A stretch of 64,000 bases of DNA from NCBI GenBank assembly GCA_003225175.1, contig QIBA01000056.1, forward strand, positions 23,790 through 87,789, given 5' to 3'. The position numbers and the translations under genes are program-made. A model generated the notes under the pieces. It did no database searches. It saw nothing but the letters and a program-made list of their open reading frames with translations, and was not told where the DNA came from. Below, one piece after another: positions 17,267-43,418 of the stretch (the first letter of the stretch is position 1; the number at the start of each line of letters is the position of its first letter). Origin of the DNA: Acidobacteriota bacterium. GTDB taxonomy: Bacteria > Acidobacteriota > Terriglobia > Terriglobales > Acidobacteriaceae.

Positions 17267-20200
17267 CTAGAAGATCACCTTGGCTCCCAGTTGAAGAGTT
17301 CGGGCGTCATAGGCGCTTGTGATCTTGCCCACATCAGTACCGCCGATTGCGCTGTTGACGCCTCCACCGTTTACGTCTCCACGGAATTGGGTGTGGTTCC
17401 AAATGTTGTAGGCCTCGAAACGGAGTTCGGTATGTAGACGCTCAGTGAAGGCGATGTTCTTGAAGAGAGCCATATTCCAGTTGTCACGTCCGGGACCGCG
17501 CAACGCGTTTTTTCGCATGTTGCCGAAGATGGCGGTTGTGCTGCCCGGTATGAGGTTAATGGCAAAGGCTGACGGATCGAACCACTGAATCGTGTTGTTT
17601 CCACTCGACAGCGTTGCGGCTGTTTTCGGGTAGCTGATTGACCCAATCTGATTCGGCCGGACAGCGCAGTTCTGAACCGTCTGGCAGACATTGTTGCCGC
17701 TGACTCCAAGGTTAAGCGGCGCTCCCGATTCCATGGTCACGATTCCTGACAACTCCCATCCGCCGACGGTGTTCTTCAGCAGCGCGTTGGAACTGGAGCG
17801 GAAGAACGGAACGTTGTAGATGAAGTTGACGAAGGCAACATGCGTACGATCGAAGATCGATGGACCCCAATCGTTTTTCCAGCCGAGATACGGATTCGAT
17901 GTGTTGTTGAGATCAAAACCATCGCCGCCGGTTCCGGTGGTAGGATCCAGAGCGCGAGACCACGTGTACGCCCCCTGCAGCGAGAGGTCACGTATCTTGG
18001 ATCGCAGCTCTACCTGAAGTGAGTTGTAGTTCGAGTTCGCGCCGTTTTGGTTTAGGTTGATGCTCTTGTAGCCCAAAAAAGGAACAACCCGGTTGTACTG
18101 CGAGGCTGCCGTTGAATTAGTGATAAAGCTAGGCAGTAAGCTTGCATTTGGCAAGTTGAGTTCCTGGCGGAAGCTCAAGTACCGGTTCTGGTTTCCTACA
18201 TAGGACGTGGACAGTACAGTTTGCCGTCCAAGCTGGTGTTGAACGCCAAGACTGTATTGATAACTGGTTGGATTCTTGTAGTGCTTGGCGTCGAGCTCCT
18301 GAAGATTGTTGACTGTTACCGGAAGCGTCGCTGTACTGATATTGGCATTGGTTTGATCTACCCCGATATGCGGATCGGAAAGCGAGACATTGCTTAGCGA
18401 AGCCGATCCACCGAATAGATTATTGCCTCCAGCCTGGTACATGTCATTGCCCTGGATTCGTTCGAACATGATGCCGAGCCCTCCACGAAGCACCGTTGTT
18501 CCATGTCCAGTCAAATCATAGGCAAAGCCCAGCCGCGGTCCCCAGTTGTTCCAATGATTGTCCACTAGGCCATTGGTTACGCCCGGAGTCTTGCCCGGCA
18601 CCCCAAGACCATTTGCGTACTGCAAGAGCCCGTTGAGTGCGGGATTGGGACCGGTTGCCAGAGCAGGGCTCGCAGCTGTGCATGAAGAATTCGGAATACC
18701 AGCTCCAGAACAAATCTGTGTGCCGTTTGCGTTCGCGAACAGAGGCGCATTGGCGAGATTGTAGAGATCCGGGTAGAAGTTCGACATCTGGCCGTTGATT
18801 TCCGCCGTGTGCGGAATTCCATCCCAACGCAGGCCGAGGTTGAGGGTCAGACGCCTGGTGGCTCGCCAGTTATCCTGAACATATCCAAACCAGGAAACAC
18901 TGTTCCAGTTTCGGTCGTCTTTGAGGGCAGCTTCGCTGTAGCCGCTGGAGAGGCCAAGCAGGAAATCGGCAAAATCGTAGCCGGTGAAATTCCCGTTAAA
19001 TCCGAAGTTGCCCTGGGTGGTTGTCTGCAATGGTTGCAGCTTGCGGAAGTTCAACCATCCGCCGCCGAACTTCCACTGATGAGTTCCCCTCGTCCAGGAC
19101 AGGTCATCGCGAATTTGATAGCTGTCGGCAACATTGCTCCATGGCCACCAGTTCGCGTCGTAACGCGATCCTGTCTTTCCACCCGCGTTCAGGTTGATGA
19201 TTGGAGTGACGTCGGTCGTACTGCCAAACAGCTTATGCTGCGAGAAGCCCGTATCGGTCAACTTGTACTTGCCGGCAGGAAGAATGTTGATGCGATTGCC
19301 GCCATAGTTGAACGCTACTTCGTTGAGTAAGGTCGGGCTAATGATATTCGTTGCATGAACGACCGCGCTGTACGAGGGATTGCCGAATGTGTCGTAGACA
19401 GTAGGCAGGTTCGCGCCACCGCTCCAGCGTGTAGGAATATCGGTCTGCAGAATCTGTTCTGCAATGAAATGCCCGAAGACGGAAAACTTTTCGTTGAAGG
19501 TATGGTCAATCCTGACCAGTTCCTCTTTCACGTTCGTGGGCGAATCCGCGCCGCCAATGAATGTCCGCCCCGAAGTGGGAGCTGGGAATATTCCAGCTTT
19601 TAGCAACGCCTGCGCATTGACATCGAGCAGAGATGCGGCGATGGTGTTGTTGGGAAAGGGTTGGCCCGAACTAAGACGCGCAGCGGTAAATTTCGCCTGC
19701 TGCGCGGAAGAAAGCGTGGAGAAGTTCGGTACGTGCAGGTTCGTTTGGCCGGTATTTAGAACGCCGCCGAAGTTGAGAGCTTCGTTCATGTTTCCGGCAT
19801 ACGTGCTGGGGAATGGGACATTCGTCCTCAGGGCTCCACCCTGGATCAGATCGCGCCATTCCATGTTGTAGAAGAAGAAAGTCTTGGGATCGGAGCCGCT
19901 CTTGAACTTCACTGGCCCACCGACGTTGAAGCCGTAAGTGTTAAACCGCAGCTTCGGCATCTTGTTTTCTGAACCATTCGCGTTAAATCTGGGAGTGAAA
20001 AAGTTTCGAGCGTTGAATGCATCGTTGCGCCCGAACCACCAGCCCGAGGCATGCAAGGTCCTGGTACCGGACTTGAGCGCTGAAGTCACGGTTGCCGAAG
20101 ATGACAGCCCATATTCCGCGCTGTAGTTGGACGTCAACTGCCGGAACTCGGCAATGGCATCGATCGAAGGCATCACAATCGCGCCGGAACCACCTCTATC

Positions 20201-20848
20201 TGCAGCTTCTGCGCCGTCGATCATGTACAGATTATGGGCCACACGTTGACCGTTGAAAGCAACGTTCTGGTCGCCGCCCATCGGAGTCGGAACCTGAAAG
20301 TCTCCCTGCAGGCTACTCGCCCCCGGAGTGAGATTGACAATTGAGTAGAGGCTGCGGCCGTTGGTCTCGAGCTGCGTGATCTGCTCACCAGTGATCACGC
20401 TACTGACTTCGCCGCTGTCGGTCTTGACCGCAATGGAAGCCGCTTCGACTGTGATCGAGGTCTGAGTTGTGCCAACCTTCAGACCGAAATCGACGCGCCG
20501 GCGGTCTCCTACGTTCAGAACGACGCCGGTCGTATCGGCCAGACCGAAGCCGGCCGCCTGGACCTTGACATCATACGTGCCGATCGGAAGCGCGGTTGCC
20601 ACATACTGCCCGGCGTCATTGGTGGCAAGATTACGAACCTGCCCGGTCGCCATATTCGTGATTGTGATCGTGGCATTTGGGATGACAGCGCCTGAGCTGT
20701 CGCTGACCGTGCCAACCAGTGTGGCTTCCTGCGCGAGGGCCTGAGTTGCAAGTATTCCCAGAAACACACTGAGGGCGAGGAGAAGGTGCCTGCGGCGGGA
20801 CGTCGCGGCCTGAATAAGTCTCTCGGCATGCGTGGACGAAAGCTTCAT
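17267..20848 (-). CDS. TonB-dependent outer-membrane receptor with N-terminal carboxypeptidase-regulatory-like domain
   Basis: 1193 aa. Signal peptide, TVSDSSGAVIPNATITITNMATGQ...TNDAGQY (CarboxypepD_reg), plug and 22-strand barrel. C-terminal aromatic residue (…AKVIF). Confidence 0.9.
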   Translation of the reverse strand: MKLSSTHAERLIQAATSRRRHLLLALSVFLGILATQALAQEATLVGTVSDSSGAVIPNATITITNMATGQVRNLATNDAGQYVATALPIGTYDVKVQAAGFGLADTTGVVLNVGDRRRVDFGLKVGTTQTSITVEAASIAVKTDSGEVSSVITGEQITQLETNGRSLYSIVNLTPGASSLQGDFQVPTPMGGDQNVAFNGQRVAHNLYMIDGAEAADRGGSGAIVMPSIDAIAEFRQLTSNYSAEYGLSSSATVTSALKSGTRTLHASGWWFGRNDAFNARNFFTPRFNANGSENKMPKLRFNTYGFNVGGPVKFKSGSDPKTFFFYNMEWRDLIQGGALRTNVPFPSTYAGNMNEALNFGGVLNTGQTNLHVPNFSTLSSAQQAKFTAARLSSGQPFPNNTIAASLLDVNAQALLKAGIFPAPTSGRTFIGGADSPTNVKEELVRIDHTFNEKFSVFGHFIAEQILQTDIPTRWSGGANLPTVYDTFGNPSYSAVVHATNIISPTLLNEVAFNYGGNRINILPAGKYKLTDTGFSQHKLFGSTTDVTPIINLNAGGKTGSRYDANWWPWSNVADSYQIRDDLSWTRGTHQWKFGGGWLNFRKLQPLQTTTQGNFGFNGNFTGYDFADFLLGLSSGYSEAALKDDRNWNSVSWFGYVQDNWRATRRLTLNLGLRWDGIPHTAEINGQMSNFYPDLYNLANAPLFANANGTQICSGAGIPNSSCTAASPALATGPNPALNGLLQYANGLGVPGKTPGVTNGLVDNHWNNWGPRLGFAYDLTGHGTTVLRGGLGIMFERIQGNDMYQAGGNNLFGGSASLSNVSLSDPHIGVDQTNANISTATLPVTVNNLQELDAKHYKNPTSYQYSLGVQHQLGRQTVLSTSYVGNQNRYLSFRQELNLPNASLLPSFITNSTAASQYNRVVPFLGYKSINLNQNGANSNYNSLQVELRSKIRDLSLQGAYTWSRALDPTTGTGGDGFDLNNTSNPYLGWKNDWGPSIFDRTHVAFVNFIYNVPFFRSSSNALLKNTVGGWELSGIVTMESGAPLNLGVSGNNVCQTVQNCAVRPNQIGSISYPKTAATLSSGNNTIQWFDPSAFAINLIPGSTTAIFGNMRKNALRGPGRDNWNMALFKNIAFTERLHTELRFEAYNIWNHTQFRGDVNGGGVNSAIGGTDVGKITSAYDARTLQLGAKVIF

Positions 20849-20908
20849 TGCCAGCCTCCGGAATGGAGATTTTGTGCTTACGACATATCGACTAAAACCT
20901 TACAGATC

Positions 20909-20932
20909 AAAATCTAAATCGATTTAGATTTT
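20909..20932. promoter_or_regulatory. 24-bp perfect palindrome, putative LacI-family operator
   Basis: aaaatctaaatcgatttagatttt, ~60 bp upstream of the TonB-dependent receptor start and downstream of the LacI gene. Near-identical half-sites recur at 39737-39758. Confidence 0.6.
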
Positions 20933-21038
20933 CTCGGCTGGAAACTCTGGCATGGGCTGGGTATTGTTGTCAAATGTTTTTTGCGAAGCCATCTCTCTTT
21001 TATCGCAGCTGGCTCGGCGATGCGACGACGTGTGGATT

Positions 21039-22157
21039 CTACTCGCCGACGGCGTTGTGACCTTGCGAGTTACTGATTGGCGTCTTTTTTGCGCCGGCTG
21101 CCAAAGCGCGCGTCGATTCACGCACGACGAGCATAGGTTCCACCAGGATTTCACGGGACTTTTCTTCAGAATTTTCGATCCGCTTGATTAGCGTGCTGGC
21201 CGCCAGCTCACCCATCCGGATCAGCGGCTGGCGAATGGTCGTTAATCGGGGAACGTTGAAGGCGGCTTGGTCGATATCATCGAAGCCGATCACCGACACG
21301 TCTTTGGGAACCTTCAGGCCGGCATCGCGAAATGCCCGGATCGCTCCGATGGCTGAACCATCATTGAAAGCAACGAGCGCTGTGAAATCGCGTGAAGCCT
21401 TCAACAGCTCTTTGGCTGCATGGTATCCCAAATCGGCCATCGTGGTGTTATTGCACTCGGGATACTTGCCAAGACTGCGGGTCAATCTCGGCGCGATCGG
21501 GATCTTGAGGTCCGCGGCAGCTTTCTGCACGCTCTCCCAGCGATCGTCCGTATCGCCGTTGCCCTCAGGACCACGGAAGAATGCGATCGTACGATGTCCC
21601 AACGAGCGAAGATGCTTTAGAGCTAGACGGGCGGCGCGAGCGTTGTCGATGACGATACTGCTCACGTCGGGAGCTTCCGTGATGTCAGAAACCGCAACCA
21701 CGGGTACAGGTAGCCGCCGCCCGAGTGGAGTGTTGATAAAGATCATGCCCTCGACACCGCGATCCAACAGCGTGTCGGGCGATTTCTCAATCAGCTCCGG
21801 TGCGCCGCGGTGGCTGACAACGAAGTAGAAGTATCCCTGTTGTGCGAGACGTTTCTCAATGCCGCTAATCAGCGATGACGAAAATTCGTCGCCGATATCC
21901 GGGACCAGCACGGCGACACAGTAAGTGCGTTTTCCATGCAAGTACCGGGCAAAGACGTTGGGTCGGTAATTGAACTGCCGCACCGCCTCCCAAATTCGTT
22001 GCTTCGTCTTTTCTGCAATGGTGGCAGCCAGAGGAGAGTCGCTGATCACGACGGAGATGGTGGTGGGCGAGAGATCCAGATGTTTGGCGAGATGCTTGAG
22101 CGTTACTCGATCGCCGTTCCCATTACGGGAGGTAGAACTATGATTTCTTCCCGCCAT
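21039..22157 (-). CDS. LacI-family transcriptional regulator
   Basis: N-terminal HTH VTLKHLAKHLDLSPTTISVVIS plus a periplasmic-binding-protein-like sugar-binding core. Confidence 0.9.
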   Translation of the reverse strand: MAGRNHSSTSRNGNGDRVTLKHLAKHLDLSPTTISVVISDSPLAATIAEKTKQRIWEAVRQFNYRPNVFARYLHGKRTYCVAVLVPDIGDEFSSSLISGIEKRLAQQGYFYFVVSHRGAPELIEKSPDTLLDRGVEGMIFINTPLGRRLPVPVVAVSDITEAPDVSSIVIDNARAARLALKHLRSLGHRTIAFFRGPEGNGDTDDRWESVQKAAADLKIPIAPRLTRSLGKYPECNNTTMADLGYHAAKELLKASRDFTALVAFNDGSAIGAIRAFRDAGLKVPKDVSVIGFDDIDQAAFNVPRLTTIRQPLIRMGELAASTLIKRIENSEEKSREILVEPMLVVRESTRALAAGAKKTPISNSQGHNAVGE

Positions 22158-22311: not shown

Positions 22312-23403
22312 TTACCGCATTCCAGAACCATGTCGTGAGAGTAGATCCAAAACCACGCCATAGGCCGGCTTGGGACGATACTGCTGGTCGAAGAGAGTAC
22401 CCGCTCCATATCCCGGGAAGGAGCGGGTAATCCAGGAGTGGGCATCGCTAAACCCCCATACCTGAATTGCCGTGCAGCCGCGCACTGCCAGACAAGCCCG
22501 AACGACGTTGCCGTATTGTTGCGCCTGCCGCTCCAGATCATGCGGATTGGCCTGTCCAGCGCTGTCCAAGGGGAGGCGTATGTCGAGTTCGGTAATTTGG
22601 ACCTCAAGTCCAAGATCCGTAAAGGCACGCATAGTCCTTTCGAGTCTTGCTAAAGCGGTCGAATCCAGAGCGAAATGACATTGGAATCCGATGCCATCAA
22701 TCGGCACGCCGCGTTTCTTGAAGTCGCGAGCCATGGCCAGAATCGCTTCGAATTTTGGACCACCGCCTTCGAATGCGTAGTCGTTGTAGAACAGCTTGGC
22801 CTTGGGATCAGCCGCGTGAGCGAGCACGAATGCGCGTTCGATGTAGCCGTACGGACCTTCGGCTCCGATTCCGGGTGAGTCATACCAGATCGTCGACCGG
22901 AGGCTACCATCTGGATGAAAAGCTTCATTGACTACGTCCCATGCATATACCGACCCGGCAAAGTGCTTAACCACCGTTTGTATGTGATCAGCCATGAGCT
23001 GCGAAAGTTCATTCCACGTCCAGTTTCCACTGCCGAGCCATTTCGGGACCGCCTGATGCCATAATAGAGTGTGGCCGCGAACTGCCATCTTGTTCTGTTG
23101 CGCAAAACGAACAAGTTCGTCGGCGGGCCCAAAATCAAATTGATCTCGCGCCGGGCGCAGTAAGGACCATTTCATTTCATTCTCGGGCTCAAGCTGATCG
23201 AACTCACGCGCCAGCGTCGTAGCATAGCGGCTGTCCTCGATGATGAAGCCCGGTCTGACGGCGCTTCCAAGATGTATCTTGGCGTGGGCAGCGTTGCGCA
23301 GAGTTCTCGTATCTGTAGAACTTCCGAGCAGGCAGACTACAGCGGCCACAGGTAAGACAAACATTTCGAGCTGACTCCTTCGTTCCTTTAGTTTGCAGCG
23401 CAA
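22312..23403 (-). CDS. GH10 endo-1,4-beta-xylanase, secreted
   Basis: Signal peptide. Catalytic motifs WDVVNEAF (acid/base) and ITELDIR (nucleophile). Confidence 0.9.
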   Translation of the reverse strand: MRCKLKERRSQLEMFVLPVAAVVCLLGSSTDTRTLRNAAHAKIHLGSAVRPGFIIEDSRYATTLAREFDQLEPENEMKWSLLRPARDQFDFGPADELVRFAQQNKMAVRGHTLLWHQAVPKWLGSGNWTWNELSQLMADHIQTVVKHFAGSVYAWDVVNEAFHPDGSLRSTIWYDSPGIGAEGPYGYIERAFVLAHAADPKAKLFYNDYAFEGGGPKFEAILAMARDFKKRGVPIDGIGFQCHFALDSTALARLERTMRAFTDLGLEVQITELDIRLPLDSAGQANPHDLERQAQQYGNVVRACLAVRGCTAIQVWGFSDAHSWITRSFPGYGAGTLFDQQYRPKPAYGVVLDLLSRHGSGMR

Positions 23404-30438: not shown

Positions 30439-31656
30439 CTACTCCACTGCTTTCTTTCTGGCCAGCAGAGCGGGTTGGCCGATTTCCAAGCGCGCCGAGG
30501 CGCCAAAATGTTTTTGCAGCACGAGTGCGACGGTTCCGCGCAGACGCGCCATGTTTCCTTCCGCCGGGCGAATGCGCGGAGGCTTTCCAAACAGCATTCC
30601 GTTTTTGACTTCCGCTTCCACAATGGGAGCGAAACGCGCCCACTGTGCCGTGCATTCTCCAACCACCACGATCTCCTCGGGAGCGAGGCCAGCGACCAGC
30701 ATGCGCACACCGCGTCCGATTCCTCGCGCCATCTGCTCGAGAGCGGTAATAGCCAGCGCGTCTCCGGCGCTTGATAAAGCGAGAAGATCTGCAAAGCTGA
30801 GCTCTTCTGAACCTCTCCCGGAGGCGTGGTAGTAACGCAGCGCGGCGCGGTTGGAGCCGTAAACTTCCCAGCATCCCCGCCCACCGCAGGTGCATGCCGG
30901 TCCCGTGGGATCAAGAGCTACGTGGCCGAATTCACCAGTCATGCCGTGGGCTCCGCGCATGAGTTGTCCATTCAGGAAAATGCCCGTGCCGATTCCCTCG
31001 GAGATCGTGATTACAACCATGTCGCGAATCTTTTCGGCATGCCCAAACCAGACTTCCGCGAGAACGCACGCGTTAGCAGCGTTCTCCAGCTCCACAGAGA
31101 GTCCCGTGATCTTTTCTACGGAGCTCTTCAAATCGAATTCTTTCCATTTCAAATTGGGAGCAAAGATCACTCGCTTGGTGGATTCGTCGTATCGTCCTGG
31201 CAGGCTGATTCCGATCCCTTCAAATACCAATTTGGGATGAGCCTGGATCAACTCCTGAACTCGCGCCGCAATCTGCTTCGCTCCCGCAGCCGCATCGGCC
31301 GGGGTGGTAAAGGCTACTTGAGACAGAAAGTGCCCATTGATATCGCCGAGCGCGACGGTTGTCTGCGCCGGCCGGATATCGGCAACGAGAATCGCCCGCC
31401 TTTCGTTTAATCGCAGAAACGTGGGCCGGCGGCCTCTTGGCAAGCGTCCGGTAGGTCCATTGATCACCCACTTCTCTTCGATCAGTTGTTCGGTGATCAG
31501 CGACACCGTGCTGCGCTGCAGCCCCGAGACTCGAGCCAGGTCGGCTCGCGAGATCGGCTGCCTGTGACGGATGAGGTTCAGCACAACGCTGCGGTTAATG
31601 TCGCGCGCCGTTTCGCTGGATGCTACTTGCGTATTGGTAAAGTCGAGTCGCCGCAT
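30439..31656 (-). CDS. ROK-family transcriptional regulator (NagC/XylR-like)
   Basis: N-terminal wHTH ISRADLARVSGLQRSTVSLI. ROK sugar-kinase fold with zinc motif CTCGGRGCWE. Confidence 0.85.
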   Translation of the reverse strand: MRRLDFTNTQVASSETARDINRSVVLNLIRHRQPISRADLARVSGLQRSTVSLITEQLIEEKWVINGPTGRLPRGRRPTFLRLNERRAILVADIRPAQTTVALGDINGHFLSQVAFTTPADAAAGAKQIAARVQELIQAHPKLVFEGIGISLPGRYDESTKRVIFAPNLKWKEFDLKSSVEKITGLSVELENAANACVLAEVWFGHAEKIRDMVVITISEGIGTGIFLNGQLMRGAHGMTGEFGHVALDPTGPACTCGGRGCWEVYGSNRAALRYYHASGRGSEELSFADLLALSSAGDALAITALEQMARGIGRGVRMLVAGLAPEEIVVVGECTAQWARFAPIVEAEVKNGMLFGKPPRIRPAEGNMARLRGTVALVLQKHFGASARLEIGQPALLARKKAVE

Positions 31657-31933
31657 GGACGAACTGTATCCCAGATGCGCCCTGTGAATTAAATTCGCGC
31701 CCCGAACTTTATGCAGTCAGCCCAGACATTGTCAAGACTGGGGTGAAGAGAATCTTAGAATTTTCATTTCGCAAAAATCGCTGAGCTGCGCGCTTCAAGT
31801 AATCGCAAACTTTTTGGTAAGCCCTGACGGGCTACTCAGAAAGTCCTTAAAATATACGGCTTTATTGGATTTCTGAGAAGCGCACTGGGAGGTGATCTGC
31901 AGCGCTGAAGGGGGTCTTCATCCGGCCTCCTTC

Positions 31934-34207: not shown

Positions 34208-35434
34208 ATGGCCTCGCGCATCGCCGTCATACTCCTCTACCTGAGTTTCGGATTTTCCCAAGCTCTCGCTCAAACGCATTGGGTCGGTTCCTGGGCTGCA
34301 TCGCAGCAGCTAGCTGAGCCTAAGAACTCCCTCGCTGCCGACGATCTCACCGACGTCACGCTTCGCCAGATCGTTCACTTGTCCGTTGGCGGCCGCGAAC
34401 TGCGGGTGCGTCTATCAAACCGTTTTGGGACTGCGCCTCTGTACTTCAGTGGTATTCACATCGCGAAGGCCGTATCGGCCGGATCCGACAAGATTGTTGC
34501 GGGAAGCGATAAGGCACTCAGCTTTTCAGGAAGAGCCGACATAACGATTCCTGCCGGCGCCGATTATCTCTCTGATCCCATCGCCATTTCTGCCCCCGAT
34601 CTATCCGATTGGGCAATTACATTGCACTCCGACGCGCTCCCTGCGGAGCAGACTGGGCATCCCGGTTCACGTACGACGTCTTATCTGGGGCACGGAGATC
34701 AAGTTTCCGCATCTGAGATTCCGGATGCGAAGAAGATTGAGCACTGGTATTTCATTGCGGGAATCGATGTTGCCGCTCCACCCCAAGTCGGGTCGATCGT
34801 GACTCTAGGCGATTCCATCACCGATGGGCACGGCGCGACCACGAACGGCAACGATCGCTGGCCCGATGTGCTGGCCAAGCTCGTTGAAGCGTCTAACAAG
34901 AAGAAGCTGGCGGTGCTGAACCATGGCATTGGAGGAAACCGCCTGCTGAACGATGGCTTAGGACCGAATGCGCTGGCGCGGTTCGACCATGACGTTCTCG
35001 CGCAGGCCGGCGTGCGCTACCTGATCATTCTCGAAGGAATCAACGACATCGGTGTGCTTACGCGCGACGCTGACGCTCCCGATACGGAACACGAGATACT
35101 CGTCCGCCGCATGATTGCCGCATACGAGCAGTTGATTGCGCGCGCGCATACGCATGGCATTAAGGTCATCGGAGCAACGCTTCTGCCGTTCGTTGGAGGT
35201 GGTTATTACCATCCTGGCCCGAGGACCGAGCAAGACCGCCAAGCGGTGAATCGCTGGATCCGCACTCGGGGGCACTTTGACGCGGTGGTTGATCTGGACA
35301 AGGTAACGCGCGATCCAGCGCACCCGGAGCGCTTGCTGCCGGCATTCGACTCCGGCGATCACCTTCATCCCTCGCCTGCGGGCTATCGCGCGATGGCAGA
35401 GGCGATTCCAGCCTCGTTGTTCAGTTTGAAATAA
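34208..35434 (+). CDS. SGNH/GDSL-family esterase (possible acetyl-xylan esterase) with N-terminal beta-sandwich domain
   Basis: Signal peptide. Block I IVTLGDSITDG (Ser), block III GGNRLLND, block V DHLHPS (His). Confidence 0.75.
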   Translation: MASRIAVILLYLSFGFSQALAQTHWVGSWAASQQLAEPKNSLAADDLTDVTLRQIVHLSVGGRELRVRLSNRFGTAPLYFSGIHIAKAVSAGSDKIVAGSDKALSFSGRADITIPAGADYLSDPIAISAPDLSDWAITLHSDALPAEQTGHPGSRTTSYLGHGDQVSASEIPDAKKIEHWYFIAGIDVAAPPQVGSIVTLGDSITDGHGATTNGNDRWPDVLAKLVEASNKKKLAVLNHGIGGNRLLNDGLGPNALARFDHDVLAQAGVRYLIILEGINDIGVLTRDADAPDTEHEILVRRMIAAYEQLIARAHTHGIKVIGATLLPFVGGGYYHPGPRTEQDRQAVNRWIRTRGHFDAVVDLDKVTRDPAHPERLLPAFDSGDHLHPSPAGYRAMAEAIPASLFSLK

Positions 35435-38400
35435 CGCTCGGCGAAGCTGAGGAATGTTGGCCAGTTAGGGCCGGTGGTGTGTCCGCCGCTATGGGAACGA
35501 AACGCGATGTCACCATCGATGACAGCCGTCTCGAGCGGAGGGAATTCTGTTGCTCCGAGATCCTTTTTGCCTAGCAACCGGTAAACCGGGCCGGCGTCCA
35601 CTGCGCCGAGGAACATCCCCTTCGCATCTACCCAGCCGCCTTCAACTGTCGGCGCACCGGTGCTGATAAATACTGGGCGCGGAGCGCAGAGCGCGATCAG
35701 TTCGTGGGCATCGACCGGAAGATCGTTGGGCGTGAGAGGTCCGGCATACTTCAGGAAGTTGCCCGCCATCCAGTGATACTCGCTCGCAGAAGCTATGTTC
35801 TCGACCTGCTCGCCGAACCTTCTGCGCATGATCTTCGCGCCACCCTCGCCCGAAGAGCCAATGAACCCGATCGCGAAACGACGGTCATATGCCATAGTCA
35901 CGAGCGCAGCCTTCCCATACCGGGATAGGCCTTCAATGCCTACTCGCCTGGCGTCGACAGAATTGTCGGTCTGGAAGTAGTCGAGCGCGCGGCTGGCGCC
36001 CCAGGCCCAGGCGCGCAGTGCGCCCCAATCGTCGAGGCCGCGTGGCTGCCCCTTATTCACCAGACCGATGATGCCCTGGGTGAGGCCTTCACCGCTATCA
36101 GCCTGAATCGTCGTAGGAATCACGACGGCGTATCCCCATCCTTTTGCCAAAACCTGCTGCCGCCATGTAGAGCCATTAGCAGGATTGGCCGCGGGAAAAC
36201 GTCGCGCCATCGCAGCGAGGAATTCCGGAGTGAATCCAAACTCCATGATCACCGGCACGGGGCCTGTCGCATTCGCCGGAGTGCTCAGCGTTAGCTGAAT
36301 ATCGACTCCGATGAACGGATAAGCCGAGTTGTCCACGTGCCCATTGAGTTTCTTTGTGATTACCGGCACGTCGCCATTCATCTCCTGGGAGATGTTGGCG
36401 AGCTCCCAGTTCAGTTTAGGAATACTGTGCGGAAGGCGTCCGTAGATCTCGCGGTCAAAGCCTTCGACGATTTCCGGGCGCCGCCTCTTCCACCACGCAT
36501 CTGCTGTTGTAACCTTCTTCCCATTTTTGAGCGTGAGCGGATTGGGCAGCCGATATGGCGGAACCTTCGACTCGTCGGTATTCGCTGCATTTGGCGCTGC
36601 AGGATTCCCGCTGGGCCCAGGACGCAGCGAAGTTATGTGCAACAAATCCAGCAATCGCTGATGATCTTGATCTGAGGTGAGGTGCACCGGCTCGGGCAGG
36701 CTCGCTAGTTTTGCAGCGGACGGGTGAATCTCGACATAATCGAGCGCCGCCGGATCGCCACCGTCAGGTAAGCCCTCGATGCGAATTTTTTCGCCTGTGT
36801 GCAGAACGAGGCGGAGTTGCCGGCGAGTTGATGCATCCCCATCGAGCTGTCGGGCTGGGAAGCGATCATTCGCAGTCCACTCGCTAAGCACGTTGCCGTC
36901 AGCGAGTAGTCTGTACTTCGCCTCACCGCTGGGCATATCGAAGTACTGCACATCTATGTCATACGATCCAGCACTACCATTGAACGTGAATTCCGCGGCA
37001 CATGATTTCGTATTACTTGTGCACTCGACGGCTTTTCCTTTCGACGCCGTCTCGGGCGGAGAGATATCGAGCGGAGTGTATGCATTCAATTGCATCGCGT
37101 CGGCTTCGACACGCTCGCGATAGTGCCCGACTCTTCCGGCGACATCGGGAATGCCTGAGAGGCGCAGGAACCAATTCGTAACCGCATCTCGCCAAACAAT
37201 GGCATGCCCGCTTTGGTATTCAAGGCGATCCAGAACAGCCTGGTAGCGTTCGCCGTCAACCCGCCCCTTGAGCCGCTCCCAGTCGCGCACGAACTGATGC
37301 GCCCGCTCTGCCCCGTCGTAATGAGAGTCGTAGATGTGCTGGATGACCGTCTTGCCAGAGGACAATCGATGCGTGTAGGCCACGTGATGAAAGAACAGCA
37401 GCAGCTCATCGGGCGTGCTCTTCAGTGATTCATATATCTTTCCCACTTCAGGGCTGTACTGCGCCGTGTAGCCTGTACCTGTCGCTACAGTCCTGTCCAT
37501 GCCTACTCCATCGTGATCTGCGCGATGCCACTGTCCCCAACCGTTTCGCTCGGAAGACTCGACGCCGGGCCCGTAGTGAGTTCCCACGATGTTCGTCAGC
37601 GTTCCGATGCCGAGTGGCCCCGTGTAGCTCTCATAGACATTCCACGATGCAAGCTGCATATTCACGATCGTGTTCACTACGAGCGGATCGCTGCCGAATG
37701 TGAGCCGTGTCCACTCCTCCACGATTCGCCGAACGCCCAGATCAGGATTCCAGGCGAGCCGGGCGAAGCCGTAGAGGTTTGCCATGGCCAGAGGATGACC
37801 GAGCCAGTTCGGTTCCATTCCCACATTGGCAACGCCGACGAAGCCACCCATTGGATGGCGGTAGGTTTTTCCGGCGACAATTTCCTTCGTGAACGAACTC
37901 TTATGATTCGCATGCAGATCGAAGTCGAGGACCTGCTTCCACATCGGCGGCAGGAAACAGAGATGCCGCTGCTGCCCTAGATACTCCTGCGTGATCTGAA
38001 GCTCGATGGCCTCGTTCGTCTTTTCGAGTCCGCTGAACAGCGGAGAGACAGGCTCTCTCACCTGAAAATCGATGGGACCGTGTTTGATCTGAATAATTAC
38101 GTTGTCGTCAAACTTGCCGTCGAGCGGATGGAAGTTGTCGTAGGCCGCCTTCGCGCGATCGTTCTTCAGATTCGTCCAATCGAGATGGTGGTTATAGACG
38201 AATGCACGGTAGAAGACGATCCCGTGGTGAGGCTTGAGAGCTCGCGCAATCACGTTCGCCGCATCGGCCGGTGTGCGACCGTAAGTCGCGGGTCCGAGGC
38301 GTCCCTCGGAATCGGCCTTCACGACGAATCCGCCAAAGTCTGGAATCAGACGATAGATCTCATCAACTTTGCCGCTCCACCAAGCCTGTACTCGAGAATC

Positions 38401-39216
38401 GACCGGATCAAAAGTATCCAGACCTCCGATCACCTTCGGACTGCTGAAGTCCACCGACAGTGAGAGCGTCACACCCCACGGACGAAAGACGTCCGCAATG
38501 CGCGCGAGCTGAGGAAGGAATTCGGGAGTGAGCACTCGCGGATCGGCGTTGACGTTGTTGACGGTGCATCCATTGATGCCGACCGAAGCCAGCAAACGCG
38601 CATATTCCGCGGCCCGGGTGAGATCGCCGCGCACGCTTCCGTTCTCAAAGAAGACTGATGGACCGGCGTAGCCGCGCTCGATGCGTCCATCGAGATTGTC
38701 CCATTGATCGATCCAGCGCAGCGGCGCATACGGCTGCTGAACCTCATCCAGATATTCGATGCTTTCGCCGAGCGCGATCCGACGAAGAAGCGCGAAGGCT
38801 CCATACAAAACGCCTCGCTCCGTTAAACCTACAACCAGGATGGAATCCACGCCGCGTACTTGCCGCTTTGTCAGCCAGAAACCATCGCCTTGGATCTGCG
38901 GGGGCTGGACATCGGATGCTGCCGAGTGAAGCGCGGCCGTCGTTCCCAAAATGATCGCAGGTTCGGATGAGAGCTCTGCTGCAGCGCGAAAGGGTCGATC
39001 GAGCATTCCGCTGGCCCCTCGAATCACTTCTTGCTGCGCATTCAGAAGCGCTGGAGAATTCCCTAGAGCTACTACGGCACTTGGGATTGTCTGGTACTGC
39101 TGCGCAACTCGTTGTTCCAGGCGCGAGTATCGAAGCCACGCATCTTCGCCACTCTCGGCAGGCAACAGAGCCGGCAGAGCGAGAATGACAAATGTTACAA
39201 ATAGCAGGTGCTTCAC
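35383..39216 (-). CDS. Fusion protein: GH67 alpha-glucuronidase + beta-sandwich domain + C-terminal CE15 glucuronoyl esterase
   Basis: 1277 aa. Signal peptide, GH67-like N-terminal ~700 aa (…GFWLTKRQVRGVDSILVVG…, …GCTVNNVNAD…). C-terminal 400 aa with PPYRLPNPLTLKNGKKVTTADAWWKRRRPEI and GIEGLSRYGKAALVTMAYDRRFAIGFIGSSGEGG matching CE15. Confidence 0.75.
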   Translation of the reverse strand: MKHLLFVTFVILALPALLPAESGEDAWLRYSRLEQRVAQQYQTIPSAVVALGNSPALLNAQQEVIRGASGMLDRPFRAAAELSSEPAIILGTTAALHSAASDVQPPQIQGDGFWLTKRQVRGVDSILVVGLTERGVLYGAFALLRRIALGESIEYLDEVQQPYAPLRWIDQWDNLDGRIERGYAGPSVFFENGSVRGDLTRAAEYARLLASVGINGCTVNNVNADPRVLTPEFLPQLARIADVFRPWGVTLSLSVDFSSPKVIGGLDTFDPVDSRVQAWWSGKVDEIYRLIPDFGGFVVKADSEGRLGPATYGRTPADAANVIARALKPHHGIVFYRAFVYNHHLDWTNLKNDRAKAAYDNFHPLDGKFDDNVIIQIKHGPIDFQVREPVSPLFSGLEKTNEAIELQITQEYLGQQRHLCFLPPMWKQVLDFDLHANHKSSFTKEIVAGKTYRHPMGGFVGVANVGMEPNWLGHPLAMANLYGFARLAWNPDLGVRRIVEEWTRLTFGSDPLVVNTIVNMQLASWNVYESYTGPLGIGTLTNIVGTHYGPGVESSERNGWGQWHRADHDGVGMDRTVATGTGYTAQYSPEVGKIYESLKSTPDELLLFFHHVAYTHRLSSGKTVIQHIYDSHYDGAERAHQFVRDWERLKGRVDGERYQAVLDRLEYQSGHAIVWRDAVTNWFLRLSGIPDVAGRVGHYRERVEADAMQLNAYTPLDISPPETASKGKAVECTSNTKSCAAEFTFNGSAGSYDIDVQYFDMPSGEAKYRLLADGNVLSEWTANDRFPARQLDGDASTRRQLRLVLHTGEKIRIEGLPDGGDPAALDYVEIHPSAAKLASLPEPVHLTSDQDHQRLLDLLHITSLRPGPSGNPAAPNAANTDESKVPPYRLPNPLTLKNGKKVTTADAWWKRRRPEIVEGFDREIYGRLPHSIPKLNWELANISQEMNGDVPVITKKLNGHVDNSAYPFIGVDIQLTLSTPANATGPVPVIMEFGFTPEFLAAMARRFPAANPANGSTWRQQVLAKGWGYAVVIPTTIQADSGEGLTQGIIGLVNKGQPRGLDDWGALRAWAWGASRALDYFQTDNSVDARRVGIEGLSRYGKAALVTMAYDRRFAIGFIGSSGEGGAKIMRRRFGEQVENIASASEYHWMAGNFLKYAGPLTPNDLPVDAHELIALCAPRPVFISTGAPTVEGGWVDAKGMFLGAVDAGPVYRLLGKKDLGATEFPPLETAVIDGDIAFRSHSGGHTTGPNWPTFLSFAERYFKLNNEAGIASAIAR

Positions 39217-39341: not shown

Positions 39342-39623
39342 TCACTGCCCCGCATCATGCGGAACCGTGACATTTACCGACGAGCTAGTCTTCGAGCCCG
39401 CCGAATCTGTCACGGTCACAGTGAGAATATATGCACGATCATTGCTCGAGTTGCCGGTTCTCTCGGAGCGTAGCAAGACATTATGTGCATCCTGAATTAC
39501 GCAATCTGTCGCGGTGTTGCCATCGCCAGTTCCGTTACTGAACTGATTGCTGCTGACGCTCACGACAGGCGCTAGTTGTGTATCGCAATTGTCGCTAATG
39601 CTGTATGAAAGAACGGCGTTCAT
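39342..39623 (-). CDS. Orphan Ig-like (HYR-like) domain fragment. Possible gene remnant
   Basis: 93 aa with DNCD...TDC...AYILTVTVTDSAGSKTSSSVNVTV resembling hyalin-repeat/adhesin beta-sandwich domains. No signal peptide or partner domain. Confidence 0.3.
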   Translation of the reverse strand: MNAVLSYSISDNCDTQLAPVVSVSSNQFSNGTGDGNTATDCVIQDAHNVLLRSERTGNSSNDRAYILTVTVTDSAGSKTSSSVNVTVPHDAGQ

Positions 39624-39736
39624 CAGCTTATGGTTCGGCGGTCACAGCACGGCGGAATTCACCGCAAGCGCAGCGTGGCTCGGCTATGGCTGTTTGGACA
39701 AAAGGGAACGGCAAGCTTGATGGGTCGTCGAAAGAC

Positions 39737-39758
39737 TTATCTAAATCGCTTTAGATAA
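39737..39758. promoter_or_regulatory. Palindrome ttATCTAAAtcgcTTTAGATaa, second copy of the putative LacI operator
   Basis: Shares ATCTAAA-N4-TTTAGAT with 20909-20932. Lies 60 bp downstream of the second LacI gene and upstream of the minus-strand GH67-CE15 transcription unit. Confidence 0.55.
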
Positions 39759-39817: not shown

Positions 39818-40885
39818 TCAACCTGACCGGACGCCGTTCGCCTCTCGGAAGAGATGAAGGTTGGAACGCAGGATAATGGAAGGATTCAAATATTGCGAAC
39901 GCGCTAGCTCTGCACCGTGCAGAAGATGTTCCACCAGGCTGCGAATAGCAAGTTGTCCTTGGACGTATGGCTGCTGATGAATGGATGCTGCGATTGCGCC
40001 TCGCTCGAAGTAAGGAATCATCTTGCGGAAGAGATCGGTAGCAATGAGCCGTACCCGGTCCCCACACTTCGCGGCGCTGAGTGCGCGACAAACCGGCAAA
40101 CAATTTACGGTGTTCACATAAATCCCGGCGAGATCACGTTCGCTTTCGACCAGGTGCATAGTCTTGCGAAAACTCTCGTCCGGATGTTCGTGCGCCTCAA
40201 TCACTGCGACGATCTCGCCGCCGGAAGAACGCTCGCGAAAGCTTGCGATGAACCCTTCAGTCTTCTGACTGTGATCCACCGTCTTCAGCATTCCTGTCAC
40301 GATCGCCACCTTGGCCCCCGCTCCGACGAAATTTGCCATAAGCTCGCCGGCGATCAAGCCGTTCAGCCGTGGCTCAATGCAAACCACTGACGAGCGGCGA
40401 CTCACGGGAGCATCGGTGGAGACACAAACGACGCGCGTCCCGCGCTGCTCTGCGATATCGATTAGGGACGTCATCGCCTCAGGATTTCCCGGTGTAACGA
40501 CGATGCCGTTTACTGCCGACCTGAGCAGCTTGTTGAATGCAGACTGTTCGCCACGTCCTAATTCCGGAACCGCAAGCGGAAGGAACTCGACCCCACGGCC
40601 AGCATAACGATCGGCCTCGTCGCGAATTCCATCCCATAGTTCGTCGTAGAAATACGCGATCTCTCTGGGAACACATATGCCGATGCGAACGTGTCTGCCG
40701 GTGGAAAGTGCCCGTGCAGCAGGGTTGGCCTTGTACCCGATTTGCCGGGCAATTTTCAGAATCCGTTTAAGGGTTTGCGGACTTATGCCGGGGCGGCCGT
40801 GCAGCGCACGGTCCACGGTGCCAATCGAGACCTCCGCCAATTTGGCAATCAGCGGAATGCCGCTCTGCTTTCTCGCCTTCCTCAT
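39818..40885 (-). CDS. LacI-family transcriptional regulator (second copy)
   Basis: HTH IAKLAEVSIGTVDRALHGRPGISPQTLKRILKIARQIGY plus a PBP-like sugar-binding domain. Confidence 0.9.
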   Translation of the reverse strand: MRKARKQSGIPLIAKLAEVSIGTVDRALHGRPGISPQTLKRILKIARQIGYKANPAARALSTGRHVRIGICVPREIAYFYDELWDGIRDEADRYAGRGVEFLPLAVPELGRGEQSAFNKLLRSAVNGIVVTPGNPEAMTSLIDIAEQRGTRVVCVSTDAPVSRRSSVVCIEPRLNGLIAGELMANFVGAGAKVAIVTGMLKTVDHSQKTEGFIASFRERSSGGEIVAVIEAHEHPDESFRKTMHLVESERDLAGIYVNTVNCLPVCRALSAAKCGDRVRLIATDLFRKMIPYFERGAIAASIHQQPYVQGQLAIRSLVEHLLHGAELARSQYLNPSIILRSNLHLFREANGVRSG

Positions 40886-43122: not shown

Positions 43123-43418
43123 TCCGGTCTCTCTCCCGACGACACTCTCTACAACTCCGAAGCGGGATAGTTATACCGTTAACGTACACGAATTGCACTT
43201 CTCTTTTGTTAGGCGTTCTGGTAATAATTGCCGGGCCTCACTCTTCGAGACCGTTTTTCGCGGCGAGTATTGGCGCGCTGCTTTATGGCGAGGCTCGGGA
43301 ATTGGAAGTTCGCCAGGAACATGAAGAATTGCATTCAGGAGACCGGAAAGAGCGCCATTCTTGTCATTGCGGTAACCCTGGGCCATGCTCGGACGAAGAA
43401 GGCGCGCGCGAGGACACA

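What the first reader, a model, noticed from the sequence alone, without database searches (positions are those of the whole stretch)
20909..20932. Shared palindromic operator ATCTAAATCG-N-TTTAGAT at both LacI paralogs of the xylan locus
A perfect 24-bp palindrome (aaaatctaaatcgatttagatttt) lies between the first LacI gene and the receptor gene it precedes. A second copy with identical 9-bp half-sites (ttatctaaa tcgc tttagataa, 39737-39758) lies just downstream of the second LacI gene, ahead of the GH67-CE15 transcription unit. The AT-rich palindromes stand out in GC-rich DNA. One xylan-responsive regulon may be controlled by two LacI paralogs through the same operator
Basis: seen in the sequence. 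Interest (0 to 1): 0.6.

Follow-up and report, generated by a model that had tools for sequence, protein, structure and literature searches.

The report
Xylan-locus repressor operator, two copies
The two AT-rich palindromes are real, conserved binding sites of the ordinary LacI-repressor type in a soil acidobacterium's xylan-degradation locus, but comparison with related genomes indicates that only the first LacI gene uses them, while the second LacI has its own different site.

Summary
A perfect 24-bp palindrome lies at 20909-20932. A 10-of-11 copy lies at 39737-39758. They share the 18-mer ATCTAAATCG-N-TTTAGAT. They are the only two such sites in the 64-kb window, and chance expects about 0.06.

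The sites have the standard LacI-family operator form: an even palindrome with a central CG. Site 1 is centred 72 bp upstream of a TonB-dependent receptor gene.

- The two LacI proteins are only distantly related (26% identity over the N-terminal 128 residues) and have different recognition helices.
- In nine distinct LacI1-ortholog loci, the window included, the motif always sits next to LacI1. That includes loci with no LacI2 within 10 kb where it precedes GH67-CE15 and ROK-receptor genes.
- All nine distinct LacI2 loci, the window included, instead carry an invariant, different element, GTGTACGTTAACGG, in the promoter of the xylB / GH3-LacI2 divergon. Three of them lack the palindrome entirely.
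- Site 2 lies beside LacI2 only through gene order. It is the operator of the next unit, a GH10 gene now deleted to a remnant, followed by GH67-CE15.

This is a new member of a known kind. No binding was tested.

The parts
20909..20932 (.). Operator O1, copy 1: perfect 24-bp palindrome AAAATCTAAATCGATTTAGATTTT (conserved core 20912-20929). Its centre is 72 bp upstream of the receptor gene's ATG.
   Evidence: Conserved in orthologous LacI1-receptor spacers: L003, L076, L001, L007, L212 (alignment A3) and L216.
20892..20905 (-). Second, degenerate palindrome CTGTAAGGTTTTAG, 22 bp centre to centre from O1. Its right half GGTTTTAG is invariant in orthologs, and in L007/L212 it reads CTAAAAGGTTTTAG. 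Possible auxiliary operator; this is inferred.
   Evidence: Alignment A3; sequences.
20944..20973 (-). Conserved promoter-like block upstream of O1: TTGACA (20968-20973), an 18-nt spacer, then TGC-CAGAGT (20944-20952). Inferred from conservation only.
   Evidence: TTGACAAC and TG-N-CAGAGT are invariant in 8 aligned sequences. The consensus sigma-70 scan did not call it, because the -10 hexamer matches only 3 of 6.
17267..20848 (-). TonB-dependent receptor of the acidobacterial type (TBDR1). It is the gene directly downstream of O1 copy 1 and the conserved partner of LacI1.
   Evidence: Pfam OMP_b-brl_4 8e-185, CarboxypepD_reg, Plug. The LacI1-receptor pair is conserved in L001, L003, L007, L076, L212, L216.
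21039..22157 (-). LacI1, the LacI-family repressor proposed to bind O1.
   Evidence: Pfam LacI HTH plus Peripla_BP_1/3. Full-length match to CcpA, PurR, RbsR and LacI structures. The HTH aligns to PurR and the hinge Leu is kept. Motif co-localisation in 9 of 9 distinct loci, the window included.
39737..39758 (.). Operator O1, copy 2: TTATCTAAATCGCTTTAGATAA (core 39739-39756). It lies 60 bp after the LacI2 stop, ahead of the GH10 remnant and GH67-CE15.
   Evidence: The orthologous site in L005/L006 lies 94 bp upstream of an intact 991-aa CBM-GH10 gene.
39345..39689 (-). Remnant (C-terminal 115 residues) of a CBM-GH10-CLIPPER xylanase gene. About 2.65 kb has been deleted relative to L005. This explains the 530-bp gap between site 2 and GH67-CE15.
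   Evidence: tblastn 70% identity to residues 878-991 of the L005 protein, and a blastn junction at the start codon. ORF 39342-39623 has weak Ig-like Pfam hits.
35383..39216 (-). GH67 alpha-glucuronidase fused to a CE15 glucuronoyl esterase. Probable target of O1 copy 2.
   Evidence: Pfam. In L213/L214 an O1 site lies 31 bp upstream of the orthologous gene.
39818..40885 (-). LacI2, a distantly related LacI-family regulator. It is last in the GH3-LacI2 operon, divergent from xylB-xylA. Proposed xylose/xyloside regulator with its own operator.
   Evidence: Synteny with xylB/xylA in 9 of 9 distinct loci, the window included.
43176..43189 (-). O2: GTGTACGTTAACGG, an imperfect CG-centred palindrome immediately followed by TATAAC. 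It lies 60 bp upstream of the GH3 start in the xylB / GH3-LacI2 divergent region. Candidate LacI2 operator; this is inferred.
   Evidence: Identical in the window, L001, L005, L007, L008, L209-L212. Allowing up to 1 mismatch, it occurs nowhere else in 1.73 Mb of fetched DNA except one site in L200.

Best explanation
The two palindromes are operators (O1) of one LacI-family repressor, LacI1 (21039-22157). A LacI1 dimer would bind each 18-bp site, with its hinge-helix leucine at the central CG. This would block transcription of (a) the TonB-dependent receptor unit next to lacI1 and (b) the xylanase-remnant / GH67-CE15 unit 19 kb away. A xylan-derived sugar would then release the repressor. LacI2 is a separate, distantly related regulator of the xylB-xylA / GH3-LacI2 divergon and has its own operator (O2). 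Site 2 sits beside lacI2 only because lacI2 ends the preceding operon. Shown here: the sequences, their non-random occurrence, their conservation, and their co-localisation with LacI1 orthologs and with LacI-family genes in other phyla. Inferred: binding by LacI1, repression, promoter positions, the identity of the effector, and the assignment of O2 to LacI2.
For: The form is that of a LacI operator: an even palindrome of 18-24 bp with a CG centre and A/T tracts at positions 3-5 from the centre, the same register as the cre site. Ravcheev et al. [quoted passage not shown] Site 1 is at 72 bp.

Footprint: in eight aligned LacI1-receptor spacers the core C-AAA-C-TTTAG and a TTGACAAC / TG-N-CAGAGT block are invariant while the flanks drift. 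The change ATCGAT to AACGTT keeps the symmetry.

Search starting from the regulator: 9 of 9 distinct LacI1-ortholog loci, the window included, carry the site next to LacI1. In L213/L214, which have no LacI2 within 10 kb, sites lie 31 bp upstream of GH67/CE15 and 29 bp upstream of ROK-receptor. Among 80 metagenome loci with LacI1 homologs of 44-63% identity, 28 have a CTAAA-N-CG-N-TTTAG-type site adjacent. Site density is 0.58 per kb adjacent against 0.020 per kb elsewhere. None of these loci contains a LacI2 homolog.

Search starting from the motif: 30 of 120 exact matches in other genomes lie within 400 bp of the end of a LacI-family gene, mostly 10-270 bp upstream of its start. Random positions in the same loci give 7.4%.

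LacI2: O2 is present in 9 of 9 distinct LacI2 loci, the window included, and O1 is absent from 3 of them. LacI1 keeps the PurR-type hinge Leu.
Against: No binding or expression data exist. Whole genomes were not available, so LacI2 could be present elsewhere in the genomes that supplied the LacI1-only loci. The helix-turn-helix sequence alone does not exclude LacI2: Chloroflexi LacI proteins with a helix TVSRALAG, similar to LacI2's TVDRALHG, sit next to the identical 18-mer. In the window there is no O1 site upstream of lacI1 itself or of GH10, GH3a, ROK-receptor 2 or CE15-GDSL, so most of the xylan locus is not under O1 here. Site 2 is about 530 bp from the next intact start codon. The proposed promoter is not recognised by a consensus sigma-70 scan. 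The assignment of O2 to LacI2 rests on synteny only.
Confidence: 0.75

Rival explanations
1. One reading: both LacI1 and LacI2 bind O1, so two regulators converge on one operator.
For: Each site lies just downstream of a LacI gene. LacI-family proteins with quite different recognition helices sit next to the identical 18-mer in other phyla. Two LacI1-clade paralogs of 43% identity in one acidobacterial genome bin (L102, L107) each have the exact motif beside them. Operator sharing among LacI proteins is therefore not implausible.
Against: LacI1 and LacI2 share 26% identity over the N-terminus only. LacI2 loci have their own invariant element O2 in 9 of 9 distinct loci, the window included. O1 is absent from the three LacI2 loci that lack LacI1-regulon genes. 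A site downstream of lacI2 cannot autoregulate it. In L001, L007 and L212 the same position is the upstream region of lacI1.
Confidence: 0.1
2. O1 is bound by another regulator of the locus, for example the ROK-family protein (30439-31656), and LacI1 is a bystander.
For: In L209 and L213/L214 an O1 site lies 29-38 bp upstream of the ROK gene. ROK repressors also use AT-rich palindromes (general knowledge).
Against: The window has no O1 upstream of its own ROK gene. L003, L216 and L001 have O1 with no ROK gene within 10 kb. Across phyla the exact motif is associated with LacI-family genes. The CG-centred even palindrome is the LacI hallmark.
Confidence: 0.05
3. LacI2 alone binds O1, and LacI1 uses some other site.
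For: Site 2 and its L005 ortholog directly follow lacI2.
Against: O1 is present in loci without LacI2 (L003, L076, L213, L216). It is absent from three LacI2 loci. O2 is conserved with LacI2.
Confidence: 0.03
4. The palindromes act as RNA hairpins, as terminators of the LacI genes or as 5'-UTR structures, and not as protein-binding DNA.
For: Both lie just downstream of a LacI stop codon. The hairpins fold better than shuffled sequence (z -2.4 and -2.8). Symmetry-preserving substitutions would also fit a stem.
Against: The stems are all A-U except the loop-closing region, with energies of only -8.2 and -6.8 kcal/mol. The terminator scan finds nothing at either site. Site 2 has no U-tract. In other genomes the same motif sits upstream of LacI genes and inside promoter spacers (TTGACA-motif-TATAAT, L065).
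Confidence: 0.02

Closest known systems
LacI/GalR-family operators as catalogued by comparative genomics (Ravcheev et al. 2014, PMC4052901), such as the CcpA cre site TGAAAGCGCTTTCA and the PurR box
   Same: An even palindrome with a CG centre and A/T tracts at positions 3-5 from the centre, 18 bp of conserved length. It lies 30-140 bp upstream of the target start codon and next to the regulator gene. The regulon is local and concerns sugar use.
   Different: The outer half-site is ATCTAAA rather than TGAAA or GCAAA. The regulator belongs to no named NCBIfam equivalog. The paper never mentions Acidobacteria (0 occurrences in its main text). In the window the regulator gene itself has no site upstream, so it is not autoregulated here, although it is in L001, L007 and L212.
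LacI-type XylR with the xyl-box (TGGTAGCGCTAACA) of Xanthomonas and Caulobacter, which controls xylan/xylose genes including TonB-dependent transporters (as summarised in PMC10380989)
   Same: A LacI-family repressor acts through a 14-bp CG-centred palindrome placed in front of several separate xylan and xylose transcription units, including outer-membrane TonB-dependent receptors.
   Different: The operator sequence differs. Here the work appears to be split between two unrelated LacI proteins: LacI1/O1 for the receptor and glucuronoxylan enzymes, and LacI2/O2 for xylAB and GH3, with a ROK regulator as well. No orthology to XylR was shown and the effector is unknown.
E. coli lac operator O1 as a downstream roadblock
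   Same: If the conserved TTGACA / TG-N-CAGAGT block is the promoter, O1 copy 1 is centred at about +17, just downstream of the transcription start, as lacO1 is at +11.
   Different: There is no evidence for tetramerisation or looping. The two O1 copies are 18.8 kb apart. Only a degenerate second palindrome lies 22 bp away.

Membership tests
LacI-family operator | Even palindrome of 16-22 bp | tested here: met
   The shared core is 18 bp. Site 1 is palindromic over 24 bp and site 2 over 22 bp with one mismatched pair.
LacI-family operator | Central CG step | tested here: met
   Both sites are centred on CG. The centre is kept in nearly all orthologous sites. The exceptions are the distal L007 site, with a CC centre, and the auxiliary palindrome downstream of the main site, which has a GG centre in the window and its orthologs.
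LacI-family operator | [quoted passage not shown] | tested here: met
   Site 1 is 72 bp upstream of the receptor ATG. Site 2 is about 530 bp from GH67-CE15, but its ortholog in L005 is 94 bp upstream of the intact GH10 gene that has been deleted in the window.
LacI-family operator | Conserved co-localisation with a LacI-family regulator gene across genomes | tested here: met
   9 of 9 distinct LacI1-ortholog loci, the window included. 28 of 80 loci with more distant homologs, a 29-fold enrichment in site density. 30 of 120 hits from the motif-first search are next to a LacI gene.
LacI-family operator | Specific binding by the repressor and release by an effector | not testable with these tools
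   This needs gel-shift, DAP-seq or reporter assays.
   26% identity over 128 N-terminal residues and no alignment of the effector domains. The recognition helices are SPTTISVVIS and SIGTVDRALH.
   It is absent from LacI2 loci L008, L210 and L211. It is present in LacI1 loci that lack LacI2. LacI2 loci carry O2 instead.
Xanthomonas/Caulobacter XylR xyl-box | Operator sequence TGGTAGCGCTAACA | tested here: not met
   O1 is CTAAATCGATTTAG and O2 is GTGTACGTTAACGG. The xyl-box sequence is taken from PMC10380989. The system works in a similar way but is not a member.
Intrinsic terminator | G+C-rich stem followed by a U-tract | tested here: not met
   No terminator is called at either site. The A-U stems give -8.2 and -6.8 kcal/mol.
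ROK-family repressor operator | The motif co-occurs with the ROK gene | tested here: inconclusive
   It lies upstream of ROK in L209 and L213 but not in the window. O1 loci L001, L003 and L216 have no ROK gene within 10 kb.

The most novel reading that the evidence does not exclude
In Acidobacteria, and perhaps more widely, several non-orthologous LacI-family repressors may recognise essentially the same 18-bp operator, ATCTAAA-N-CG-N-TTTAGAT. Two 43%-identical paralogs in one genome bin each sit beside an exact copy. The same 18-mer sits in front of LacI genes with dissimilar recognition helices in Bacteroidota, Chloroflexi, Actinobacteria and PVC bacteria. If LacI2 or other paralogs also bind O1 in this genome, receptor-based polysaccharide loci would be under combinatorial control by several sugar sensors through one shared site.
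Probability: 0.12. Interest if true: 0.5.

Novelty: new member of a known kind. Interest (0 to 1): 0.3.

Why it matters
Almost nothing has been tested experimentally about gene regulation in soil Acidobacteria, which are major plant-polymer degraders. My literature searches found no paper on LacI regulation of their xylan loci. This analysis gives a concrete, testable regulon. LacI1 with operator O1 would control a TonB-dependent receptor and glucuronoxylan-debranching enzymes (GH10, GH67-CE15, and in relatives ROK-receptor and GH3). A separate LacI2/O2 module would control xylose catabolism. It also supplies a conserved promoter-like block (TTGACAAC ... TG-N-CAGAGT) that could help in annotating acidobacterial promoters. 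The mechanism itself is textbook LacI-type repression, so the value lies in annotation and experimental design, not in a new concept.

Tried and rejected
1. Relaxed searches of the window (14-mer with 3 mismatches, and a weight matrix) for more O1 sites upstream of GH10/GH3a, ROK-receptor 2, CE15-GDSL or lacI1 found none above background.
2. A consensus sigma-70 and terminator scan at both sites found no promoter and no terminator at the palindromes. The promoter proposal therefore rests on conservation only.
3. I tried to assign the operator from recognition-helix residues. I abandoned this because LacI proteins with dissimilar helices sit beside the identical 18-mer in other phyla.
One acidobacterial hit (L045) lies at the 3' end of an integrase gene and is probably chance.
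5. NCBIfam gave no equivalog name for either LacI.
6. Two literature searches for LacI regulation of acidobacterial xylan loci found nothing relevant.
7. The RNA-hairpin and terminator reading was rejected on energetics and context.

Full report
**Observation**

The sequence at 20909-20932 is AAAATCTAAATCGATTTAGATTTT, a perfect 24-bp palindrome. The sequence at 39737-39758 is TTATCTAAATCGCTTTAGATAA, where 10 of 11 positions per arm pair. The shared pattern ATCTAAA-N4-TTTAGAT has two perfect matches in the window. With up to two mismatches there are three matches, against a mean of 0.06 in dinucleotide-preserving shuffles; no shuffle reached three. An independent palindrome scan found only nine 24/25-bp near-palindromes in the 64 kb, and these are the only two with related sequence. 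A weight matrix built later from acidobacterial sites scores them 31.4 and 29.2 bits; the next best position scores 10.6. Window G+C is 53-59%.

**Context**

The window comes from an acidobacterium. The receptors are of the CarboxypepD_reg/OMP_b-brl_4 type, and homologs are annotated Terriglobales or Acidobacteriaceae. Reading along the minus strand:
- GH3 (disrupted) then LacI2 (39818-40885)
- site 2
- a 93-codon ORF (39342-39623)
- the GH67-CE15 fusion (35383-39216)
- further on, GH10 (22312-23403) then LacI1 (21039-22157)
- site 1
- TonB-dependent receptor TBDR1 (17267-20848), then a TPR protein and a cupin protein

Between these lie GH3a, a second receptor with a ROK regulator, CE15 and GDSL genes. 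xylB and xylA are divergent from GH3-LacI2.

Site 1 is centred 72 bp upstream of the TBDR1 start codon and 106 bp after the LacI1 stop. Site 2 lies 60 bp after the LacI2 stop and about 530 bp before GH67-CE15.

**The two LacI proteins are not close paralogs**

- BLASTP aligns only the N-terminal 128 residues, at 26% identity.
- LacI1 has Peripla_BP_1/3-type effector domains and matches CcpA, PurR, RbsR and LacI structures over its full length.
- LacI2 has a Peripla_BP_4 domain that is closer to periplasmic sugar-binding proteins.
- The recognition helices differ: LacI1 reads LSPTTISVVISDSP, with a three-residue insertion relative to PurR, and LacI2 reads VSIGTVDRALHGRP. Both keep the hinge-helix leucine that inserts at a central CG in PurR and LacI (the role of that Leu is established knowledge).

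**Which regulator the motif follows**

I fetched the loci of LacI1 and LacI2 homologs.

*LacI1 loci*
- L003/L004 (91% identity): Band7-DUF4337-LacI1-[ATCTAAATCGATTTAGAT]-TBDR1. No LacI2 or xylan genes lie within 10 kb.
- L076 (91%): GH3a-GH10-LacI1-[exact site]-TBDR1.
- L216 (85%): LacI1-[CCTAAAACGATTTAGT]-TBDR1.
- L001 (81%), L007 and L212: GH3-LacI2-[AATCGATTTAG-type site]-LacI1-[site]-TBDR1. Here the position just downstream of LacI2 is the upstream region of lacI1.
- L213/L214 (78%): GH3-LacI1-GH10-[TCTAAACCGTTTTAGA, 31 bp upstream]-GH67/CE15 ... [CCTAAAGCGTTTTAGT, 29 bp upstream]-ROK-receptor. No LacI2 lies within 10 kb.
- L215 (64%): LacI1 sits inside a GH115/GH8/CE15/GH3/GH31/GH51 xylan cluster with sites in adjacent spacers.

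Counting the window, all nine distinct LacI1 loci have the site next to LacI1.

*LacI2 loci*
- All nine distinct loci (the window, L001, L005, L007, L008, L209-L212) keep synteny with xylB-xylA.
- All carry an invariant, different element, GTGTACGTTAACGG (O2; window 43176-43189). It is immediately followed by TATAAC-like hexamers in the divergent promoter region.
- Allowing up to one mismatch, O2 occurs nowhere else in 1.73 Mb of fetched DNA except one site in L200.
- The O1 palindrome is absent from the three LacI2 loci that hold only xylAB with or without GH3 (L008, L210, L211).
- Where O1 is present near LacI2, it always precedes lacI1, a GH10/GH67-CE15 unit (L005), or ROK-receptor (L209).

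**Phylogenetic footprint**

In eight aligned LacI1-receptor spacers the invariant columns fall into three blocks:
- TTGACAAC
- TG-N-CAGAGT, 18 nt further on
- the operator core C-AAA-C-TTTAG

The flanks vary. L001 and L212 carry CTAAAACGTTTTAG in place of CTAAATCGATTTAG, a change on both arms that keeps the dyad.

A second, degenerate palindrome (window 20892-20905, CTGTAAGGTTTTAG) lies 22 bp away. Its right half is invariant, and it reads CTAAAAGGTTTTAG in L007 and L212.

If the conserved block is the promoter, which is inferred because the consensus scan does not call it, then O1 is centred near +17. That is a roadblock position like lacO1.

**Broader searches**

*Starting from the regulator.* Among 80 metagenome loci with LacI1 homologs of 44-63% identity, 28 have a (A/T/G)CTAAA-N-CG-N-TTTAG site within 300 bp upstream or 500 bp downstream of the gene, often facing a receptor gene. 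Density is 0.58 sites per kb there against 0.020 per kb elsewhere. No LacI2 homolog is present in any of these loci.

- 30 of them have a LacI-family gene whose end lies within 400 bp, mostly with the motif 10-270 bp upstream of its start. Random positions in the same loci give 7.4%.
- They include Bacteroidota, Chloroflexi (for example TTGACA-TCTAAAACGTTTTAGAT-TATAAT in L065), Leifsonia, PVC bacteria and Acidobacteria.
- Among the Acidobacteria, L102 and L107 are two 43%-identical LacI1-clade paralogs from one genome bin.

The motif is a widely used LacI-type operator. This also means it is not unusual.

**Site 2 and gene decay**

The 93-codon ORF between site 2 and GH67-CE15 is the C-terminal remnant of a 991-aa CBM-GH10-CLIPPER xylanase that is intact in L005. 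It shows 70% identity to residues 878-991, and the DNA alignment shows a deletion of about 2.65 kb starting at the start codon. In L005 the orthologous site is 94 bp upstream of that gene. The neighbouring GH3 gene is also disrupted: residues 1-568 and 606-780 lie in different frames.

**Rivals**

- An RNA hairpin or terminator role is unlikely. The stems are A-U with energies of -8.2 and -6.8 kcal/mol, no terminator is called, and elsewhere the motif sits in promoters.
- The ROK regulator is unlikely. O1 occurs without ROK in several loci and is absent upstream of the window's own ROK gene.
- LacI2 cross-binding cannot be excluded from sequence. Chloroflexi LacI proteins with a LacI2-like helix sit beside the same 18-mer.

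**Comparison with known systems**

The form matches the LacI-family rule of even palindromes with a CG centre, 30-140 bp upstream (PMC4052901). The logic resembles the LacI-type XylR with its xyl-box in Xanthomonas and Caulobacter (PMC10380989). The operator sequence differs, and the task here appears to be divided between two unrelated LacI proteins. Neither protein reaches any NCBIfam equivalog cut-off. I found no literature on this in Acidobacteria.

**Verdict**

The operator reading is well supported by comparative evidence. The part about two LacI paralogs sharing one operator is not supported: O1 most likely belongs to LacI1 alone (confidence about 0.75), and LacI2 has its own site. This is a new member of a known kind, of modest interest.

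Noticed in passing
window 43176-43189 (minus strand), with TATAAC at 43170-43175: GTGTACGTTAACGG is invariant in all nine distinct LacI2 loci (the window included), in the xylB / GH3-LacI2 divergent promoter region. It appears to occupy the spacer between the -35 and -10 elements. Candidate operator of LacI2, acting as a xylose regulator.
   Followed up: partly
window 39345-39689 (minus strand): C-terminal remnant of a 991-aa CBM-GH10-CLIPPER xylanase that is intact in L005. About 2.65 kb has been deleted, starting at the start codon, while the upstream operator was kept.
   Followed up: yes
window 40889-43122 (minus strand), break near 41416-41422: The GH3 gene upstream of LacI2 is split into two frames and lacks about 37 codons relative to its 780-aa orthologs. 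It is either a pseudogene or an assembly error.
   Followed up: partly
window 20892-20905: A second, degenerate O1-like palindrome with a GG centre lies 22 bp (about two helical turns) downstream of site 1. Its half-site GGTTTTAG is invariant across orthologs. It may be an auxiliary operator or a 5'-UTR element.
   Followed up: partly
window 20944-20973; also 31700-31740 upstream of ROK; L209 16420-16460: A recurrent promoter-like block, TTGACAA(C), then about 17-18 nt, then (TG-N)CAGAGT or CATAAAGT, lies upstream of receptor and ROK operons. It may reflect an acidobacterial promoter variant with a weak -10 element.
   Followed up: no
window 31686-31696: An 11-bp palindrome, GAATTAAATTC, lies between the ROK promoter-like block and the ROK start. 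It is partly conserved in L209 (GAATTAATCC). Possible ROK autoregulatory site. In L209 and L213 an O1 site also precedes ROK, but not in the window.
   Followed up: no
L007 12560-12640 and 12760-12840; L212 likewise: The promoter-operator module upstream of TBDR1 is duplicated in tandem. One copy in L007 has a CC-centred palindrome (TCTAAAACCTTTTAGA).
   Followed up: no
L102 (6012) and L107 (5246), both from the acidobacterial genome bin SZAS KAN-5: Two 43%-identical LacI1-clade paralogs in one genome each sit beside an exact ATCTAAANCGNTTTAGAT site. This suggests possible operator sharing or cross-talk among paralogs.
   Followed up: partly
L023, L043, L063, L081, L085, L105 and others (Verrucomicrobiota / PVC genome bins): The same 18-mer recurs many times per genome with identical flanks (ATATGATCTAAACCGGTTTAGATGTCGAA), 19 bp upstream of ORFs with weak LacI-like matches. 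This may be a large regulon or a repeated promoter cassette.
   Followed up: no
L045 4189-4206: An exact motif match in an Acidobacteriales genome bin lies at the 3' end of a phage-type integrase gene with no LacI gene nearby. It is probably a chance match.
   Followed up: partly
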